From a virus: DNA of 40,885 nucleotides. The notes beneath the pieces are model-generated. The model had not been told where the DNA came from and searched no databases. It was given only the letters and a program-made list of their open reading frames with translations. Location: the UHGV virus genome UHGV-0869933. The stretch is one strand, 5' to 3'. The translations under genes were made by a program, and so were the position numbers. Positions 6,625 to 22,100 of the stretch are shown here, in pieces; within the stretch, counting starts at the first letter, position 1; each line of letters opens with the position of its first letter.

Positions 6625-6659
6625 GCAGTTTACTCACATCTGACAAAATCAATATAAAC

Positions 6660-6868
6660 AGCCCCTCCGGAGAGGGGCTGGAGAGTGGCGCTATGTGCCA
6701 TTGCATGGTGCCGGGTGCCTCCCGGTGAATTCAGTACCAGCACCTGAATCCGCGATTATCCCATATACCTACTCGCTGATTACCCCTCCGCACAGGGGGA
6801 TTCACCATGCGAAATTTTTTAACAAACTTCCCGCCGGCCAGACAATAATCGCCAGCCTGAATTATGAG
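6660..6868. repeat. Copy A of a diverged roughly 210-bp non-coding element
   Basis: Shares with copy B the hairpin AGCCCCTCCGGAGAGGGGCT, GCATGGTGCC-N-CCTCCCGGT-AATTCAG, GGGGGATTCACCATGCGA and a CCAGACAAT-ATC tail. Confidence 0.7.
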
Positions 6869-7132
6869 CAACGTGGCATTTTACGGGAAAACTGTTTTCT
6901 GCAGTAAAAAGGCCCGCCGGAGCGAGCCTGGAAGGATAGCGGTCATGTGATGCCGGTTTCCCGGTAACTCAGCATCGGTATCTGAGTCAACGTTTTCTCT
7001 ACTGGGTCATTTCCGATACGTTCCGCCTTCCGGCAGACTTTCATCACGTCAGAAAATATAGCACCCTGAGTAACAGGACAGTACTCAGAATTCAGGAAAC
7101 TGTGACACATCCTGCACAGAAAAGCCCCTCCG

Positions 7133-7347
7133 GAGAGGGGCTGAAGTATAGCCTAATTTCTGTCTGTCGCATGGTGCCAGGGGCCTCCCGGTAAATTCAG
7201 CCTGTCTACTGAATTTGCATGTTCTCTGGATCATACACTTTGCCAGATGCCCCGCCGCTGAGGGGGATTCACCATGCGATGTAATTTTTAACAAATTCTC
7301 CGGCAGCCAGACAATCATCAAGCTGTGGAATTGTGAGGTATTTAAAA
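7133..7347. repeat. Copy B of the same diverged element
   Basis: Same block order and orientation as copy A with scattered substitutions and indels; no conserved ORF across the two copies. Confidence 0.7.
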
Positions 7348-7570: not shown

Positions 7571-7647
7571 TGGACCGCCATCGGGGACTTGAACCCCGCG
7601 CAGCCAGCTTCGAAGGCTGGCGCTCTATCCCGATGAGCTAATGGCGG
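7571..7647 (-). tRNA. tRNA-Arg (anticodon UCG)
   Basis: Hand-folded cloverleaf: 7-bp acceptor CCGCCAT/ATGGCGG, D-arm GCTC...GAGC, anticodon loop CTTCGAA, T-arm CGGGG-TTCAAGT-CCCCG, 3' CCA encoded. Confidence 0.8.
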
Positions 7648-7654
7648 TATGTGA

Positions 7655-7730
7655 TGGTGGCCCTTGCTGGATTTGAACCAGCGACCTGGCGATTATGAGT
7701 CGCTCGCTCTCACCACTGAGCTAAAGGGCC
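7655..7730 (-). tRNA. tRNA-Ile2/Met type (anticodon CAU), ileZ-like
   Basis: GGCCCTT-TA-GCTCAGTGGTGAGAGC-G-AGCGA-CTCATAA-TCGCC-AGGTC-GCTGG-TTCAAAT-CCAGC-AAGGGCC-A-CCA; resembles E. coli ileX and the phage ileZ. Confidence 0.8.
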
Positions 7731-13449: not shown

Positions 13450-13605
13450 TTACTCCTCAGGTTCGTAAGCTGTGAAGACAGCGACCTCCGTCTGGCCGGT
13501 TCGGATTCGTACCTCGCAGAGGTCTTTCCTCGTTACCAGTGCCGTCACAATGACGGTTAAACAGATGACGATCAGGGCGATTAGCATCGCCTTTTGCTGC
13601 TTCAT
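13450..13605 (-). CDS. hokD: Hok/Gef-family type I toxin (HokD/RelF-like)
   Basis: MKQQKAMLIALIVICLTVIVTALVTRKDLCEVRIRTGQTEVAVFTAYEPEE matches the Qin HokD (RelF) sequence as I recall it; the track ORF carries a mok-like upstream extension. Confidence 0.85.
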   Translation of the reverse strand: MKQQKAMLIALIVICLTVIVTALVTRKDLCEVRIRTGQTEVAVFTAYEPEE

Positions 13606-13886
13606 AGCCTGCTTCTCCTTGCCTTTCGGCACGTAAGAGGCTAACCTACGTGTGTAGAGCATAGATATGGCCTCAGATTAATGTTAAGCGTCTTGCCGGA
13701 CGCGTAATGTTAACTGGGGCTTTTCTCTATCTGCCTTTTGGTGTTCATGCCTGAGACAGATAGCCTCAAGCACCCGCTGCAATTCTACTTAACTCTCCTT
13801 TTCCCGCAAACCGTTTTTATCCCCAGCGGCAAATCGAATACACCACCAGCGCCACCGCCATCGCAATTCCTACCGTTGTTAATGCT

Positions 13887-19868: not shown

Positions 19869-19946
19869 TACCCACAGGTAAACAAAAGTCAATACCCACA
19901 GGTTGTTTACCTTGCGGTAATCGCATCTATTATTTACCTATGGACA
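19869..19946. promoter_or_regulatory. Right operator/promoter region with three 12-bp operator-like sites
   Basis: TACCCACAGGTA (19869-19880), TACCCACAGGTT (19893-19904), TACCTATGGACA (19935-19946); a -10 TATTAT sits 6 nt before the repressor ATG, implying a leaderless repressor transcript as for lambda cI. Confidence 0.5.
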
Positions 19947-20356
19947 AATATGAATTTAGACGACAGCAACTCATCAAAATTCGTGATGAGAAATGCGATG
20001 GTAAAGCGGTTAACGTGGCCAGAAAGATCGGGCGCGAGCCTTCTTATGTATCAAGAATGTTGTACCCAGAGGGGAAAAGGGAAAAACGGATCGCTGATGA
20101 TATGGTGGAGATTATCGAAGAGTCCTTTGGGTTACCCCGGGGATGGATGGATGGTATCGTTTCATCATCAACGAACACAGCCTCCAGTTATGAAACAAGG
20201 GTTCTAACGCCACGACAACGTATTTTTTTAGATCTCTTAGACGAACTGCCAGAAAGTGAAGCGGATAAATTATTAAAAACTCTTGAAGAGAAAAAACAGT
20301 ATTACAATATGATCTACGAAGAAATCCGTAAAAAGAAAGCACAAAACGCATCATAG
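19940..20356 (+). CDS. Phage repressor (cI-position HTH protein)
   Basis: 138 aa; N-terminal HTH (VARKIGREPSYVSRML); transcribed towards the early-left genes and int; flanked on both sides by related palindromic operators. Confidence 0.65.
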   Translation: MDKYEFRRQQLIKIRDEKCDGKAVNVARKIGREPSYVSRMLYPEGKREKRIADDMVEIIEESFGLPRGWMDGIVSSSTNTASSYETRVLTPRQRIFLDLLDELPESEADKLLKTLEEKKQYYNMIYEEIRKKKAQNAS

Positions 20357-20398: not shown

Positions 20399-20435
20399 TA
20401 CCCATGGGTATTTACTTTTTAAATACCTATGGGTA
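20399..20435. promoter_or_regulatory. Left operator/promoter region (two palindromic sites over a pL-like promoter)
   Basis: TACCCATGGGTA (perfect palindrome, 20399-20410) and TACCTATGGGTA (20424-20435) overlap -35 TTTACC and -10 TAAATA of a promoter reading into ydfA. Confidence 0.5.
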
Positions 20436-20621
20436 TCCTTCTTTTCATACCAACCCACCCCGCCCCACAGAATGCAGGGCAATACTTCGAGTTACCAGGC
20501 AGTGGTCAGGGGTTAAGTAGCCAGCCCGAGGCGTAAGAACATGACGGCAGGGTTCAACTTTAATAACTATGCAGCAGGTTTTTGTTCCGCTACCCCGGCG
20601 TTAAGGGGAAATGAGGTCAGC

Positions 20622-20777
20622 ATGGATACTATCGATCTTGGCAACAACGAATCTCTGGTGTACGGCGTGTTTCCCAACCAGGACGGCACGTTCACCGCGA
20701 TGACGTATACCAAAAGCAAAACGTTTAAAACCGAAAATGGTGCCCGTCGCTGGCTGGAAAGAAACTCAGGTGAGTGA
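20622..20777 (+). CDS. ydfA: YdfA-like small protein (51 aa)
   Basis: MDTIDLGNNESLVYGVFPNQDGTFTAMTYTKSKTFKTENGARRWLERNSGE; size and order match the Qin ydfABC-dicF-dicB operon. Confidence 0.6.
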   Translation: MDTIDLGNNESLVYGVFPNQDGTFTAMTYTKSKTFKTENGARRWLERNSGE

Positions 20778-20778
20778 T

Positions 20779-20907
20779 ATGGATTTCGACACAATCATGG
20801 AAAAGGCTTACGAAGAATACTTCGAAGACCTTGCCGAAGGCGAAGAAGCTCTCAGCTTCAGTGAGTTTAAACAGGCGCTTTCCAGCTCGGCAAAATCTAA
20901 CGGCTGA
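20779..20907 (+). CDS. ydfB: YdfB-like small protein (42 aa)
   Basis: My translation: MDFDTIMEKAYEEYFEDLAEGEEALSFSEFKQALSSSAKSNG; starts 1 nt after the ydfA stop. Confidence 0.5.
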   Translation: MDFDTIMEKAYEEYFEDLAEGEEALSFSEFKQALSSSAKSNG

Positions 20908-20936
20908 TAAGCGAAGTAGCACCGCGAGGAATCAGT

Positions 20937-21155
20937 ATGCAGAAACGAGAACCCGTCATAATCGCGCCAGACTATACCGATGATGAACTTTATGAGTGGA
21001 TGCGCCAGAAAATTAATGCAGCGCAGGATCTGAAATGGGCTAATGAAGCCAGGGCTAAGCAGGCTGAAAATCTGTCCGCTCTGGAGCAGGATATCACCAA
21101 TCTGGAAAAAGCAGCGGCATTAAGCATTGCCAGAATGATTACATACCCGCGTTAA
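20937..21155 (+). CDS. ydfC: YdfC-like protein (72 aa)
   Basis: Track ORF of 72 aa in the expected position before dicF. Confidence 0.6.
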   Translation: MQKREPVIIAPDYTDDELYEWMRQKINAAQDLKWANEARAKQAENLSALEQDITNLEKAAALSIARMITYPR

Positions 21156-21496
21156 TAGCTAACCAACGAAGCTAAGGTTGGTAATTAAGGAGTTCTCCAC
21201 GGGTGAGGTGGAGTGCGTGCGCCGGACACGGGTGAGCATCCGGCACTGACAGTTTACTGAAAGGATATTTCCCTGAAAAGTCAGACCATAACGCGAAAGC
21301 GCACGGCGAGGTAGCTGGTTCATAGATAGCCTGTCGTTAAATTTTCGTCGACCGTGCGCTTCCGGTTGTGGCAATCCGCGAAATGGCGCGGCGGTAAGTA
21401 TGGCGGGGTTATTCCTTCCCCCGTTGAGGACACCGGGTTGTCAGGTTGACCATACGCTTAAGTGACAACTCCGCTGCAACGCCCTCTGTTATCAAT

Positions 21497-21555
21497 TTTC
21501 TGGTGACGTTTGGCGGTATCAGTTTTACTCCGTGACTGCTCTGCCGCCCTTTTTA
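21497..21555 (+). ncRNA. dicF: DicF small regulatory RNA
   Basis: TTTCTGGTGACGTTTGGCGGTATCAGTTTTACTCCGTGACTGCTCTGCCGCCCTTTTT matches the E. coli DicF sequence as I recall it; lies immediately upstream of dicB. Confidence 0.8.
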
Positions 21556-21723
21556 AAGTGAATTTTGTGATGCGGTGAATGCGGCTAAGCGCACGCGGAA
21601 CAGTTAAAACCAAAAACAGTGTTATGGGTGGATTCTCTGTATCCGGCGTTAATTGTTAACTGGTTAACGTCACCTGGAGGCACCAGGCACCGCATCACAA
21701 AACTCATTGTTGAGGGCGCGATA

Positions 21724-21912
21724 ATGAAAACGTTATTACCAAACGTTAATACGTCTGAAGGTTGTTTTGAAATTGGTGTCACTATCAGTAATCCTGTATT
21801 TACTGAAGATGCCATTAACAAAAGAAAACACGAACGGGAGTTATTAAATAAAGTATGCATTGTTTCAATGCTGGCCCGTTTACGTCTGATGCCAAAAGGA
21901 TGTGCACAATGA
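21724..21912 (+). CDS. dicB: Cell division inhibitor DicB
   Basis: MKTLLPNVNTSEGCFEIGVTISNPVFTEDAINKRKHERELLNKVCIVSMLARLRLMPKGCAQ, 62 aa, near-identical to K-12 DicB as recalled. Confidence 0.85.
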   Translation: MKTLLPNVNTSEGCFEIGVTISNPVFTEDAINKRKHERELLNKVCIVSMLARLRLMPKGCAQ

Positions 21913-22100
21913 ATCCAGTATTTGCACTTATTCTGACGGTTTTTCTTGTTTCCGGAGAGCCAGTTGATATTGCAGTCAGTGTTCACAGAACAATGCAGGA
22001 ATGTATGGCAGCAGCAACCGAACAGAAAATTCCAGGCAACTGTTATCCGGTCGATAAAGTTATTCACCAGGATAATAACGAAATCCCGGCAGGATTTTAA
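21909..22100 (+). CDS. ydfD: YdfD-like small membrane protein
   Basis: MNPVFALILTVFLVSGEPVDIAVSVHRTM ..., 63 aa; ATGA overlap with dicB. Confidence 0.7.
   Translation: MNPVFALILTVFLVSGEPVDIAVSVHRTMQECMAAATEQKIPGNCYPVDKVIHQDNNEIPAGF

What the first reader, a model, noticed from the sequence alone, without database searches (positions are those of the whole stretch)
20622..22100. Intact Qin-type ydfABC-DicF-dicB-ydfD division-inhibition module, with about 340 bp of structured sequence upstream of DicF
The gene order and the recognisable DicF and DicB sequences indicate the complete operon that is partly decayed in K-12. Between ydfC and DicF lies a GC-rich non-coding stretch (21160-21496) with many potential stems, which may be the precursor from which DicF is processed or may hold a further RNA element.
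Basis: partly seen in the sequence, partly recalled or inferred. Interest (0 to 1): 0.4.

Follow-up and report, generated by a model that had tools for sequence, protein, structure and literature searches.

The report
Conserved pseudoknotted leader RNA beside DicF
The region is the well-known dicBF cell-division-inhibition operon of a lambdoid prophage, but the "spacer" just upstream of the DicF small RNA contains a 116-nt pseudoknotted RNA that I could not find described, conserved in E. coli K-12 Qin, phage P1 and many other temperate phages, and possibly the signal that lets RNA polymerase read through early terminators in phages lacking an N protein.

Summary
Window 20622-22100 is ydfA-ydfB-ydfC, a 341-nt spacer, DicF (Rfam 76.7 bits), a 174-nt spacer, dicB and a ydfD-like gene. 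It lies in an apparently complete prophage next to ompW. The module is already known. K-12 carries the same genes and the same 568-nt untranslated stretch at 97% identity, so it is not decayed there. Processing of DicF from this transcript was shown in 1990.

What seems new is in the 3' third of the spacer. Element A (21365-21480) is a six-helix pseudoknotted RNA with about 45 invariant bases. On 26 diverse copies, 17 of 36 pairs show compensatory changes and 93.5% of cells pair, against 32-54% with shifted partners. Rfam 15 has no family for it, and I found no description of it. There is one copy per phage, in the leaders of pL-type early-left operons, the P1 ban operon and a late/lysis operon. 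It always lies upstream of a terminator and a long duplex, and no carrier examined has a recognisable N gene.

My best guess (about 0.35) is a cis-acting antitermination leader RNA that works like HK022 put or Bacillus EAR without being related to them. The function is not shown. The DicF-dicB spacer is a second conserved structure, STnc100-like, carrying the probable RNase III site.

The parts
20399..20435 (+). Inverted repeat TACCCATGGGTA...TACCTATGGGTA just after the repressor gene (19937-20356). Probably an operator pair at the promoter of the operon (inferred).
   Evidence: the repressor matches phrog_5736 'transcriptional regulator' and weakly DicA
20622..20777 (+). ydfA (DUF1391), 51 aa
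   Evidence: same protein accession as K-12 YdfA
20779..20907 (+). ydfB, 42 aa
20937..21155 (+). ydfC, 72 aa (phrog_1744)
   Evidence: same protein accession as K-12 YdfC
21195..21245 (+). Two similar hairpins (CUCCAC...GUGGAG and GCCGGA...UCCGGC). Each carries the direct repeat CACGGGUGAG in its loop. A mobile module, not always present upstream of element A.
   Evidence: occurs alone in phage phi367; upstream flank is a mosaic
21294..21364 (+). Helix P-1: 13-nt inverted repeat CGAAAGCGCACGG / CCGUGCGCUUCCG enclosing 45 nt. An optional 5' extension of element A, present in the Qin-type, L171-type and late-operon-type copies.
   Evidence: compensatory AAGCGCAC/GUGCGCUU to AAGCGCAU/AUGCGCUU read directly from the sequences
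21365..21480 (+). Element A, a conserved pseudoknotted RNA. P0 21365-72/21473-80; H1 21376-80/21387-91; Hj 21392-95/21432-35; PK 21398-403/21450-55; H3 21404-08/21419-23; H4 21436-43/21463-70. Invariant blocks are GGCGGUAAG, CACCG, CAGGUUGACCAU and CGC.U.AGUG.
   Evidence: no Rfam 15 match at E<=10
21488..21507 (+). Small hairpin GUUAUCA-AUUUUC-UGGUGAC. Its loop holds the DicF 5' end (21497), which is the reported RNase E processing point (position inferred).
   Evidence: predicted in most Qin-type copies; RNase E dependence from PMC5069750 and PMC9438474
21497..21554 (+). DicF sRNA (53 nt, 21497-21549) with its intrinsic terminator hairpin and U-run (21550-54)
   Evidence: annotated as DicF in phage Tritos; identical to K-12
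21560..21705 (+). Element B, an STnc100/PasD-like structured RNA closed by a 15-16-bp duplex (21563-77/21688-702). The reported 72-nt DicF 3' end (21568) falls in the 5' strand, so this is the probable RNase III site.
   Evidence: RF02076 partial match, 38.8 bits, below the gathering score of 47; the relative in L171 passes at 48.1 bits; 40 pairs, 14 with compensatory changes; 72-nt species from PMC9438474
21724..21912 (+). dicB, 62 aa, cell-division inhibitor
   Evidence: Pfam PF05358, 135 bits
21909..22100 (+). ydfD-like gene (DUF1482), 63 aa
   Evidence: Pfam PF07358, 87.9 bits
22194..26056 (+). Rest of the early-left operon: exonuclease (813 aa), excisionase, integrase. All intact, ending next to ompW.

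Best explanation
SHOWN. The locus is the known dicBF operon, in an apparently complete lambdoid prophage beside ompW. Its 568-nt untranslated stretch has three conserved RNA modules. Element A (21365-21480) is a six-helix pseudoknotted RNA read from the + strand. DicF follows with its intrinsic terminator. Element B is STnc100-like and closed by a long duplex. I put the probability that element A is a real, selected RNA structure above 0.9.

INFERRED (about 0.35). Element A is a cis-acting leader RNA that changes how the transcribing RNA polymerase behaves. Once transcribed it folds and makes the elongation complex resistant to the DicF terminator just downstream, and probably to Rho acting on the long untranslated leader. 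A fraction of transcripts then continue into dicB, ydfD, exonuclease, xis and int. Transcripts that do terminate yield DicF after RNase E cleavage. In this reading it plays, for phages without an N protein, the role that nutL plus N play in lambda and that put RNA plays in HK022. It works like put or EAR but is not a member of either family.
For: Structure: on 63 unique copies, 96.6% of cells pair, 11 pairs change on both sides, 0 of 500 shuffles reach this, and slid controls give 33-58%. On a MAFFT alignment of 26 diverse copies, 93.5% pair and 17 of 36 pairs change on both sides. All six helices have at least one compensatory pair; slid controls give 32-54%. Frequent G-U pairs in P0 fix the strand as +.

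Distribution: there is one copy per phage and no second copy in the window. It occurs in Escherichia, Shigella, Citrobacter, Erwinia and Izhakiella, in P1 and P7, and in active coliphages Ayreon, mEp460, Evi and Tritos.

Position: it always lies in the leader of a long operon. In P1 it starts about 25 nt after the C1-controlled ban promoters. In the cdtI/Ayreon type it lies about 280 nt after a TTGACA-16-CATAAT pL promoter. In the Qin type it follows ydfABC. In a fourth group it follows a phrog_536 regulator, upstream of the lysis genes.

Terminators: 135 of 135 copies of the first three types have a hairpin plus U-run within 170 nt. In L154 a 13-bp terminator lies about 670 nt downstream. Ayreon has a further annotated terminator in mid-operon.

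Element A is more conserved than the sRNA or terminator that follows it. No N-like protein was found in any carrier examined. The layout (leader element, then an RNase III-type duplex, then the first gene) parallels the lambda N leader (my own knowledge). RNA-only processive antiterminators are precedented by HK022 put (PMC9378689) and by Tn916 (PMC11658703).
Against: There is no functional evidence at all; the argument rests on position and analogy. The simple scan finds no excess of further intrinsic terminators in the window's operon downstream of DicF, so processivity may not be needed here. There is no second copy for the rightward operon, whereas HK022 has putL and putR. The late-operon carriers have a regulator gene in the Q position that could do the antitermination itself. 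The tight coupling to a terminator 9-40 nt away in most copies fits an attenuator or an sRNA-biogenesis module equally well. The fold differs from put: six helices with a pseudoknot, against two stem-loops. Two older papers that may discuss the flank (Faubladier & Bouche 1994; the P1 genome paper) could not be read.
Confidence: 0.35

Rival explanations
1. Element A is an RNA processing and stability module for DicF-family sRNAs. It would be a rigid structured 'handle' that defines where RNase E cuts, so that a variable single-stranded seed plus terminator hairpin is released as an sRNA with a 5' monophosphate. It would also protect the 3' end of the upstream fragment.
For: In three of four architectures A is followed 9-40 nt later by a variable seed-like stretch and a terminator hairpin. 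The DicF 5' end lies 17 nt after P0, in the loop of a small hairpin. The 5' end depends on RNase E (PMC5069750). The part after A varies much more than A, as expected for evolving sRNA seeds.
Against: The late-operon group (L150, L154, L177, L188) has A with no sRNA-type terminator next to it. P1 has A and a terminator but no DicF by Rfam. About 45 invariant bases in junctions and a pseudoknot are far more than a processing barrier needs. In P1 and the cdtI type there is no upstream coding RNA to protect.
Confidence: 0.22
2. Element A is the sensor domain of an attenuator, riboswitch-like or bound by a protein or tRNA. It would decide between termination at the adjacent hairpin (DicF only) and read-through into dicB...int, according to a host signal.
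For: A complex, highly conserved fold directly upstream of an intrinsic terminator is the classic riboswitch layout. The invariant block GGCGGUA is identical to the first 7 nt of the DicF terminator's 5' strand, so it could pair with the terminator's 3' strand. The minimum-energy fold of 21156-21555 uses that pairing.
Against: The P1 terminator (GCCCAUC...GGUGGGC) has no complementarity to A. Spacing to the terminator ranges from 9 to about 670 nt. The terminator's own 5' strand is much closer than A. The genes controlled have no common metabolic theme. No known riboswitch family matches.
Confidence: 0.12
3. Element A is a stable trans-acting RNA in its own right, released by RNase E and RNase III cuts. 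It would bind and sequester a host or phage protein, for example a defence or RNA-metabolism factor.
For: Conserved unpaired nucleotides and a compact fold are typical of protein-binding RNAs. Processing sites flank it: RNase E at 21497 and the duplex of element B. It is spread across unrelated phage types by modular exchange.
Against: It is always in the same orientation in an operon leader upstream of a terminator, which a free-standing trans-acting RNA would not require. No promoter-like site lies directly upstream in the window. No accumulating RNA species of this size was found reported in the literature searched.
Confidence: 0.12
4. The spacer is merely the unstructured or incidentally structured 3' UTR of ydfC that serves as DicF precursor. 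The apparent element would be conserved only because the phages are closely related.
For: Folding-energy z-scores are unremarkable at -1.0 to -1.8. Most copies are over 90% identical.
Against: 17 pairs have compensatory changes across lineages with 74% mean column identity, and slid controls collapse. A is retained while both flanks are swapped for unrelated sequence. A is conserved in P1 and in Erwinia and Izhakiella prophages where ydfC and DicF are absent.
Confidence: 0.04
5. Element A is a self-cleaving ribozyme of a new class that cuts the leader.
For: It has a nested pseudoknotted fold with many invariant core bases. Several small ribozyme classes are enriched in phage and integrase neighbourhoods (my own knowledge).
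Against: No match to any Rfam ribozyme family. The only mapped cut nearby, the DicF 5' end, depends on RNase E (PMC5069750). The fold order (PK 5' strand, hairpin, H4 5' strand, PK 3' strand, H4 3' strand) does not fit HDV-like topology.
Confidence: 0.04

Closest known systems
E. coli K-12 Qin dicBF operon (ydfABC-dicF-dicB-ydfD)
   Same: Same genes in the same order and the same 568-nt untranslated stretch. It is 97% identical in one piece, DicF is identical, and YdfA and YdfC have identical protein accessions.
   Different: Here the downstream exonuclease, xis and int are intact and the prophage sits at ompW. In K-12 the exonuclease is truncated next to an IS2 fragment and the integrase is a pseudogene.
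HK022 put RNAs (putL/putR), factor-independent processive antiterminators
   Same: A cis RNA in the leader of an early phage operon, in a phage without N, upstream of terminators. RNA-only action on RNA polymerase is the proposed mode (PMC9378689).
   Different: No sequence or model similarity: the covariance model finds nothing in HK022. Element A is 116 nt with six helices and a pseudoknot, against about 70 nt with two stem-loops. There is one copy per phage, not two. No activity has been shown.
Bacillus EAR (eps-associated RNA) and the Tn916 antiterminator RNA
   Same: Structured intra-operon or leader RNAs of about 120 nt that promote read-through of downstream terminators in long accessory operons (EAR from my own knowledge; Tn916 from PMC11658703).
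   Different: Different phyla and no Rfam match. Function is untested here.
Lambda nutL plus the RNase III hairpin of the N leader
   Same: Same order of parts: promoter, recognition element, RNase III-type duplex, first gene (the lambda layout is from my own knowledge).
   Different: No N gene and no boxB. The boxA-like GUGCUCU is only a partial match, and it forms a helix instead.
STnc100 / PasD prophage sRNA family (RF02076), relevant to element B only
   Same: The match covers model positions 21-154, with the same closing helix and CACC-GGAGGCACC-GGCACC hairpin. The relative in L171 passes the gathering score.
   Different: The window copy scores 38.8 bits, below 47, and lacks the family's own terminator. 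It lies inside an mRNA leader, not next to Q (bioRxiv 10.64898/2026.05.13.724894).

Membership tests
DicF sRNA (RF00039) | Covariance-model score at or above the gathering score (48 bits) over the full model | tested here: met
   76.7 bits, model positions 1-52 of 52, at 21498-21549
DicF sRNA (RF00039) | Ends in an intrinsic terminator and lies between ydfC and dicB in a dicB operon | tested here: met
   Hairpin plus UUUUU at 21511-21554; flanking genes identified
DicF sRNA (RF00039) | 5' end made by RNase E; 72-nt form made by RNase III | not testable with these tools
   Known for K-12 (PMC9438474, PMC5069750). Here only the matching hairpin and duplex are seen.
Qin-type dicBF operon | Gene order ydfA-ydfB-ydfC-dicF-dicB-ydfD downstream of a DicA-type repressor | tested here: met
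   The repressor matches DicA only weakly (24.5 bits against a cut-off of 101) and is of the YdaS/YdaT-associated type.
HK022 put antiterminator RNA | Sequence and structure similarity to putL/putR (two stem-loops, about 70 nt) | tested here: not met
   Model R1 finds nothing in HK022 at E<=10. The fold has six helices and a pseudoknot.
HK022 put antiterminator RNA | One copy in each early operon (putL and putR) | tested here: not met
   A single copy in the window and in every phage locus searched
HK022 put antiterminator RNA | Suppresses termination in cis without phage proteins; blocked by beta' zinc-binding-domain mutations | not testable with these tools
   Needs transcription assays
Lambda-type nut site | boxA plus boxB hairpin, and an N protein with an arginine-rich motif as first pL gene | tested here: not met
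   No N-type family in the early-left proteins. The ORF in the N position in Ayreon has no arginine-rich motif. The boxA-like GUGCKCU is partial and base-paired.
RfaH ops element (GGCGGTAGnnTG) | 12-nt non-template DNA motif with invariant T6 and G8 | tested here: not met
   GGCGGTAAGTATG matches the first 7 bases, then has a 1-nt insertion. T6 becomes C in a P1-like lineage together with a compensating A-to-G in its RNA partner.
Transcriptional riboswitch | Aptamer whose 3' part overlaps an expression platform, with mutually exclusive terminator and antiterminator, conserved across members | tested here: inconclusive
   A terminator is adjacent in 135 of 135 copies of three types, and a possible GGCGGUA competitor exists. 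That complementarity is absent in P1, and the terminator is about 670 nt away in L154.
Any Rfam 15 family (for element A) | A covariance-model match | tested here: not met
   No match overlapping 21354-21491 at E<=10 with permissive filters
STnc100 (RF02076), for element B | Score at or above the gathering score (47 bits), full-length model including the 3' terminator | tested here: not met
   38.8 bits over model positions 21-154 of 206. The homologous element in L171 scores 48.1. The structure covaries.

The most novel reading that the evidence does not exclude
Element A is the founding member of a new class of factor-independent (or host-factor-dependent) processive antiterminator RNAs. These would be used by N-less lambdoid phages, by P1 for its ban operon, and by some phages for their late operon. 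In that case the 'DicF gene' of E. coli K-12 is really the terminator half of an antiterminator/terminator gate that sets the ratio of DicF to DicB...Int expression. A still bolder variant that is not excluded is that A senses a host signal, making it a phage riboswitch at the induction decision point.
Probability: 0.35. Interest if true: 0.8.

Novelty: new variant of a known kind. Interest (0 to 1): 0.6.

Why it matters
DicF was one of the first bacterial sRNAs described, and Qin and P1 are among the most studied genetic elements. A strongly covarying 116-nt pseudoknot next to DicF that I could not find described would therefore be a surprise to specialists. If it is an antiterminator, it gives a concrete and easily testable answer to how the many lambdoid prophages without an N gene, such as the Qin/PPompW, cdtI and Stx2c types, express their early-left genes: division inhibitors, recombination functions, xis and int. 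The same would apply to how P1 reads through the terminator at the start of its ban operon. It would also change how DicF biogenesis and dicB expression are understood: as a regulated choice between termination and read-through, rather than passive 3'-UTR processing. Whatever its function, the alignment and model define a new RNA family ready for deposition and for experiment.

Tried and rejected
1. Homology to HK022 put was rejected. The model finds nothing in HK022, and Rfam finds nothing at the put sites.
2. A known Rfam family for the spacer: none at E<=10.
3. A second (rightward-operon) copy of A in the window or in other phages: none.
4. Thermodynamic support for structure is not significant, with z-scores of -1.8 and -1.0. 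The evidence for structure is therefore only comparative.
5. boxA/nut reading of the conserved 5' flank GUGCKCU was rejected. The match is partial, and the flank is one strand of a covarying helix.
6. RfaH ops reading of GGCGGUAAGUAUG was rejected. It has a 1-nt insertion, and T6 changes to C together with a compensating RNA partner.
7. tRNA-likeness or adjacent tRNAs as a common theme was rejected. tRNAs follow A only in P1-type loci.
8. Small-ORF reading of 21354-21449 and of the minus-strand ORFs was rejected because of frame-breaking indels among homologues.
9. An internal promoter just upstream of A in the window: none by consensus scan.
10. Extra intrinsic terminators in the window's operon: not above the shuffle expectation.
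11. Patterns designed to find copies with other bases at the covarying PK position, or at the last base of the GGTTGACCAT block, returned nothing.
12. A metagenome scan for divergent lineages gave only 2 hits.
13. Faubladier & Bouche 1994 could not be read, and no text of the P1 genome paper was found.
14. RNAalifold alone missed H4 because of the pseudoknot. The model was built by hand and then tested.
Full report
**1. What is at the coordinates**

The span 20622-22100 runs exactly from the ATG of ydfA to the stop of a ydfD-like gene.
- ydfA is 20622-20777 (Pfam DUF1391), ydfB 20779-20907 and ydfC 20937-21155.
- A 341-nt non-coding stretch follows.
- DicF is at 21497/8-21549 (RF00039, 76.7 bits against a gathering score of 48, full length).
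- It is followed by its U-run and a 174-nt non-coding stretch.
- dicB is 21724-21912 (Pfam DicB, 135 bits), and a DUF1482 (ydfD-like) gene is 21909-22100.

Upstream lie a 139-aa repressor and a divergent Cro/YdaT pair. Downstream lie an intact 813-aa exonuclease, xis and int, ending beside ompW.

**2. Comparison with K-12**

K-12 carries the same six genes, and its ydfC-dicB gap is the same length (568 nt). The match is 97% identical in a single aligned piece. Decay in K-12 starts at the exonuclease gene, which is truncated next to an IS2 transposase fragment, and at the integrase.

About 4,400 of 5,426 complete E. coli genomes carry the spacer, often several times. [quoted passage not shown] It establishes that RNase E makes the DicF 5' end. 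The 3' end comes from intrinsic termination (53 nt) or RNase III (72 nt) (PMC5069750, PMC9438474). The 'precursor' reading is therefore already known.

**3. The unexpected part**

I searched with the spacer alone. Its 3' third (about 21365-21488) recurs on its own in unrelated temperate phages:
- P1 and P7;
- phage cdtI, Stx2c phages and Ayreon;
- a phage recorded as an Actinobacillus phage.

Both flanks in these phages are unrelated to the window. Pattern scans found it in more than 180 further loci. The hosts named in the genome scan are Escherichia, Shigella, Citrobacter, Erwinia tracheiphila and Izhakiella.

The 5' two-thirds of the spacer is a recombination mosaic with breakpoints near 21150, 21170, 21190, 21210 and 21270. 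Of 122 unique upstream flanks, 51 share nothing with the window. The conserved element is also more conserved than the DicF part that follows it, which varies widely in seed and hairpin.

**4. Structure of element A (21365-21480)**

From compensatory changes seen by eye I derived a model, then tested it.

| Helix | 5' strand | 3' strand |
|---|---|---|
| P0 | 21365-72 | 21473-80 |
| H1 | 21376-80 | 21387-91 |
| Hj | 21392-95 | 21432-35 |
| PK | 21398-403 | 21450-55 (inside the H4 loop, so a pseudoknot) |
| H3 | 21404-08 | 21419-23 |
| H4 | 21436-43 | 21463-70 |

- On 63 unique copies, 96.6% of cells pair and 11 pairs change on both sides. None of 500 shuffles reaches this. Sliding the partners gives 33-58% paired and 0-4 such pairs.
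- On a MAFFT alignment of 26 diverse representatives (not fitted to the model), 93.5% pair and 17 of 36 pairs change on both sides. Every helix has at least one compensatory pair; H4 has six of eight. Slid controls give 32-54%.
- Examples: GGGUUGUCA/UGACAACCC becomes GGGUAACCA/UGGUUACCC in Izhakiella. GUAUGG/CCAUAC becomes GCAUGG/CCAUGC in P1. CGGU/ACCG becomes CGGC/GCCG in a P1-like lineage.
- Frequent G-U pairs place the RNA on the + strand.
- About 45 positions are invariant, mostly in junctions: GGCGGUAAG, CACCG, CAGGUUGACCAU and CGC.U.AGUG.
- Folding energy alone is unremarkable (z = -1.0), so the evidence is comparative.
- Rfam 15 has no matching family even at E<=10.
- The literature searches found no description. 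Two older papers that might mention the flank could not be read.
- An optional outer helix, P-1 (21294-306/21352-364), also covaries.

**5. Where element A sits**

A covariance model finds exactly one copy per phage, no second copy in the window and none in HK022. There are four architectures:
1. Qin/ompW type: repressor, ydfABC, A, DicF, element B, dicB...int.
2. cdtI/Ayreon/Stx2c/Citrobacter/Erwinia/Izhakiella type: cI, terminator, a strong pL-like promoter, about 280 nt of leader, A, a DicF-like terminator hairpin, a perfect 16-bp long-range duplex, then ORFs. Ayreon has another annotated terminator in mid-operon.
3. P1/P7: the C1-controlled ban promoters, A starting about 25 nt after the predicted start site, the terminator GCCCAUC-UUCG-GGUGGGC plus U-run, tRNAs, tciABC and ban. 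The region annotated 'dicF-like' in P1 overlaps the 3' half of A and this terminator. Rfam finds no DicF there. What P1 shares with Qin is therefore A, not DicF.
4. A divergent group (L150, L154, L177, L188): A is enclosed in a longer stem and lies in a non-coding gap of about 1-2 kb. The gap follows a phrog_536 regulator in the Q position and precedes holin, endolysin and tail genes. A strong terminator lies about 670 nt downstream.

In types 1-3, all 135 copies have a hairpin plus U-run within 170 nt, usually starting 9-40 nt after P0. None of the carriers examined has a recognisable N protein.

**6. The stretch between DicF and dicB (element B, 21560-21705)**

This is also a conserved structure. 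RNAalifold predicts 40 pairs, 14 with compensatory changes. It matches STnc100 (RF02076) partially, at 38.8 bits, below the gathering score. A relative in L171 passes at 48.1 bits. Its closing duplex (21563-77/21688-702) contains position 21568, where a 72-nt DicF would end. This fits the reported RNase III cut. STnc100 and PasD are otherwise known as prophage sRNAs found near Q (bioRxiv 10.64898/2026.05.13.724894).

**7. Mechanism**

Shown: a selected, pseudoknotted RNA in the leader of long phage operons, upstream of terminators and of an RNase III-type duplex, in phages without N.

Inferred (probability about 0.35): it acts in cis on the elongation complex so that some polymerases pass the DicF terminator, and escape Rho on the 568-nt untranslated leader. 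This would be functionally like HK022 put (PMC9378689) or Bacillus EAR. It is not related to put: the family tests failed.

Points against:
- There is no functional evidence.
- The window's operon shows no excess of further terminators.
- There is no rightward copy.
- The late-type carriers have their own regulator in the Q position.

Rivals:
- An sRNA-processing and stability handle (0.22). It is weakened by the late-operon group and by P1.
- A riboswitch-like attenuator (0.12). It is suggested by the adjacency to a terminator and by GGCGGUA matching the terminator's 5' strand. It is weakened by P1 and by the variable spacing.
- A released trans-acting, protein-binding RNA (0.12).
- A new ribozyme (0.04).
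- An incidental precursor (0.04), contradicted by covariation.

Readings as boxA/nut and as an RfaH ops site were tested and rejected.

**8. Verdict**

The module itself is already known and ordinary. Element A appears to be an undescribed RNA family present even in K-12 and P1. I rate the whole as a new variant of a known kind (phage leader regulatory RNA), with interest 0.6. The function is open and directly testable.

Noticed in passing
window 6650-6838 (-) and 7114-7307 (-); tRNAs 7574-7647 (-) and 7658-7730 (-): Two full-length STnc100 (RF02076) copies, at 132 and 138 bits, lie just downstream of two tRNA genes in the late region. They belong to the Q-proximal PasD/STnc100 prophage sRNA family. 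Element B beside DicF is a truncated relative of them.
   Followed up: partly
window 13600-13775 (-): A sok antitoxin RNA (RF01794, 117 bits), implying a hok/sok-type toxin-antitoxin locus in the prophage.
   Followed up: no
window 20399-20435: Inverted repeat TACCCATGGGTA...TACCTATGGGTA directly after the repressor gene. It looks like a pair of operators at the promoter of the dicBF operon. No consensus sigma-70 promoter was picked up between 20356 and 20622 on the + strand.
   Followed up: no
window 21195-21245; L211 1501-1573: Two similar hairpins, each with CACGGGUGAG in the loop (an exact 10-nt direct repeat). This 73-nt module occurs alone, 92% identical, in the podophage phi367, upstream of a PAPS reductase gene. 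It could be a protein-binding pair of sites.
   Followed up: partly
L004 2553-2654 (phage P1 68791-68892): The feature annotated 'dicF-like region' in P1 corresponds to the 3' half of element A plus an unrelated terminator. Rfam finds no DicF in P1.
   Followed up: yes
window 21390-21402: The invariant block GGCGGUAAGUAUG shares its first 7 bases with the RfaH ops element and with the 5' strand of the DicF terminator stem. It also contains a -10-like AAGYAT, like the pause-inducing element reported in putL. Covariation shows that RNA pairing explains at least part of the conservation.
   Followed up: partly
L005 40-228 (-) (phage cdtI): C4 antisense RNA (RF01695, 68 bits) and isrK (RF01394, 60 bits) lie side by side to the right of the immunity region. 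This points to a P1/P4-type antisense immunity module in a lambdoid phage.
   Followed up: no
L134 1448-1584 (Shigella flexneri); L051 5215-5351: These copies of element A lack the 5' strand of P0. The junction lies at a CGCGAAA repeat that also occurs about 80 nt upstream, suggesting deletion by short-repeat recombination. The Shigella copy has also lost the DicF terminator.
   Followed up: partly
L135, L136, L139: Contigs from metagenome-assembled genomes labelled Bacillota, Veillonella parvula and Collinsella carry E. coli-type or P1-type copies that are nearly identical to the enterobacterial ones. This is probably binning contamination.
   Followed up: no
L006 (Actinobacillus phage vB_Apl-pPE4): This phage carries an E. 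coli-type dicA/ydaT/kil/exonuclease VIII region with element A, a duplicated DicF-like hairpin and an STnc100-like element. The host label looks doubtful, or the phage is a recent transfer.
   Followed up: no
L143 versus window, left of about 19900: The genome that is 100% identical over 20541-22100 is not collinear with the window in the late region; the tRNAs are at different coordinates. The prophages therefore share the early-left module but differ elsewhere, which illustrates the mosaicism.
   Followed up: no
L171 14207-14351: SraC/RyeA and SdsR/RyeB lie at the end of a prophage locus carrying a divergent element A, DicF-like terminator and STnc100. This probably marks the integration site of that prophage.
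   Followed up: no
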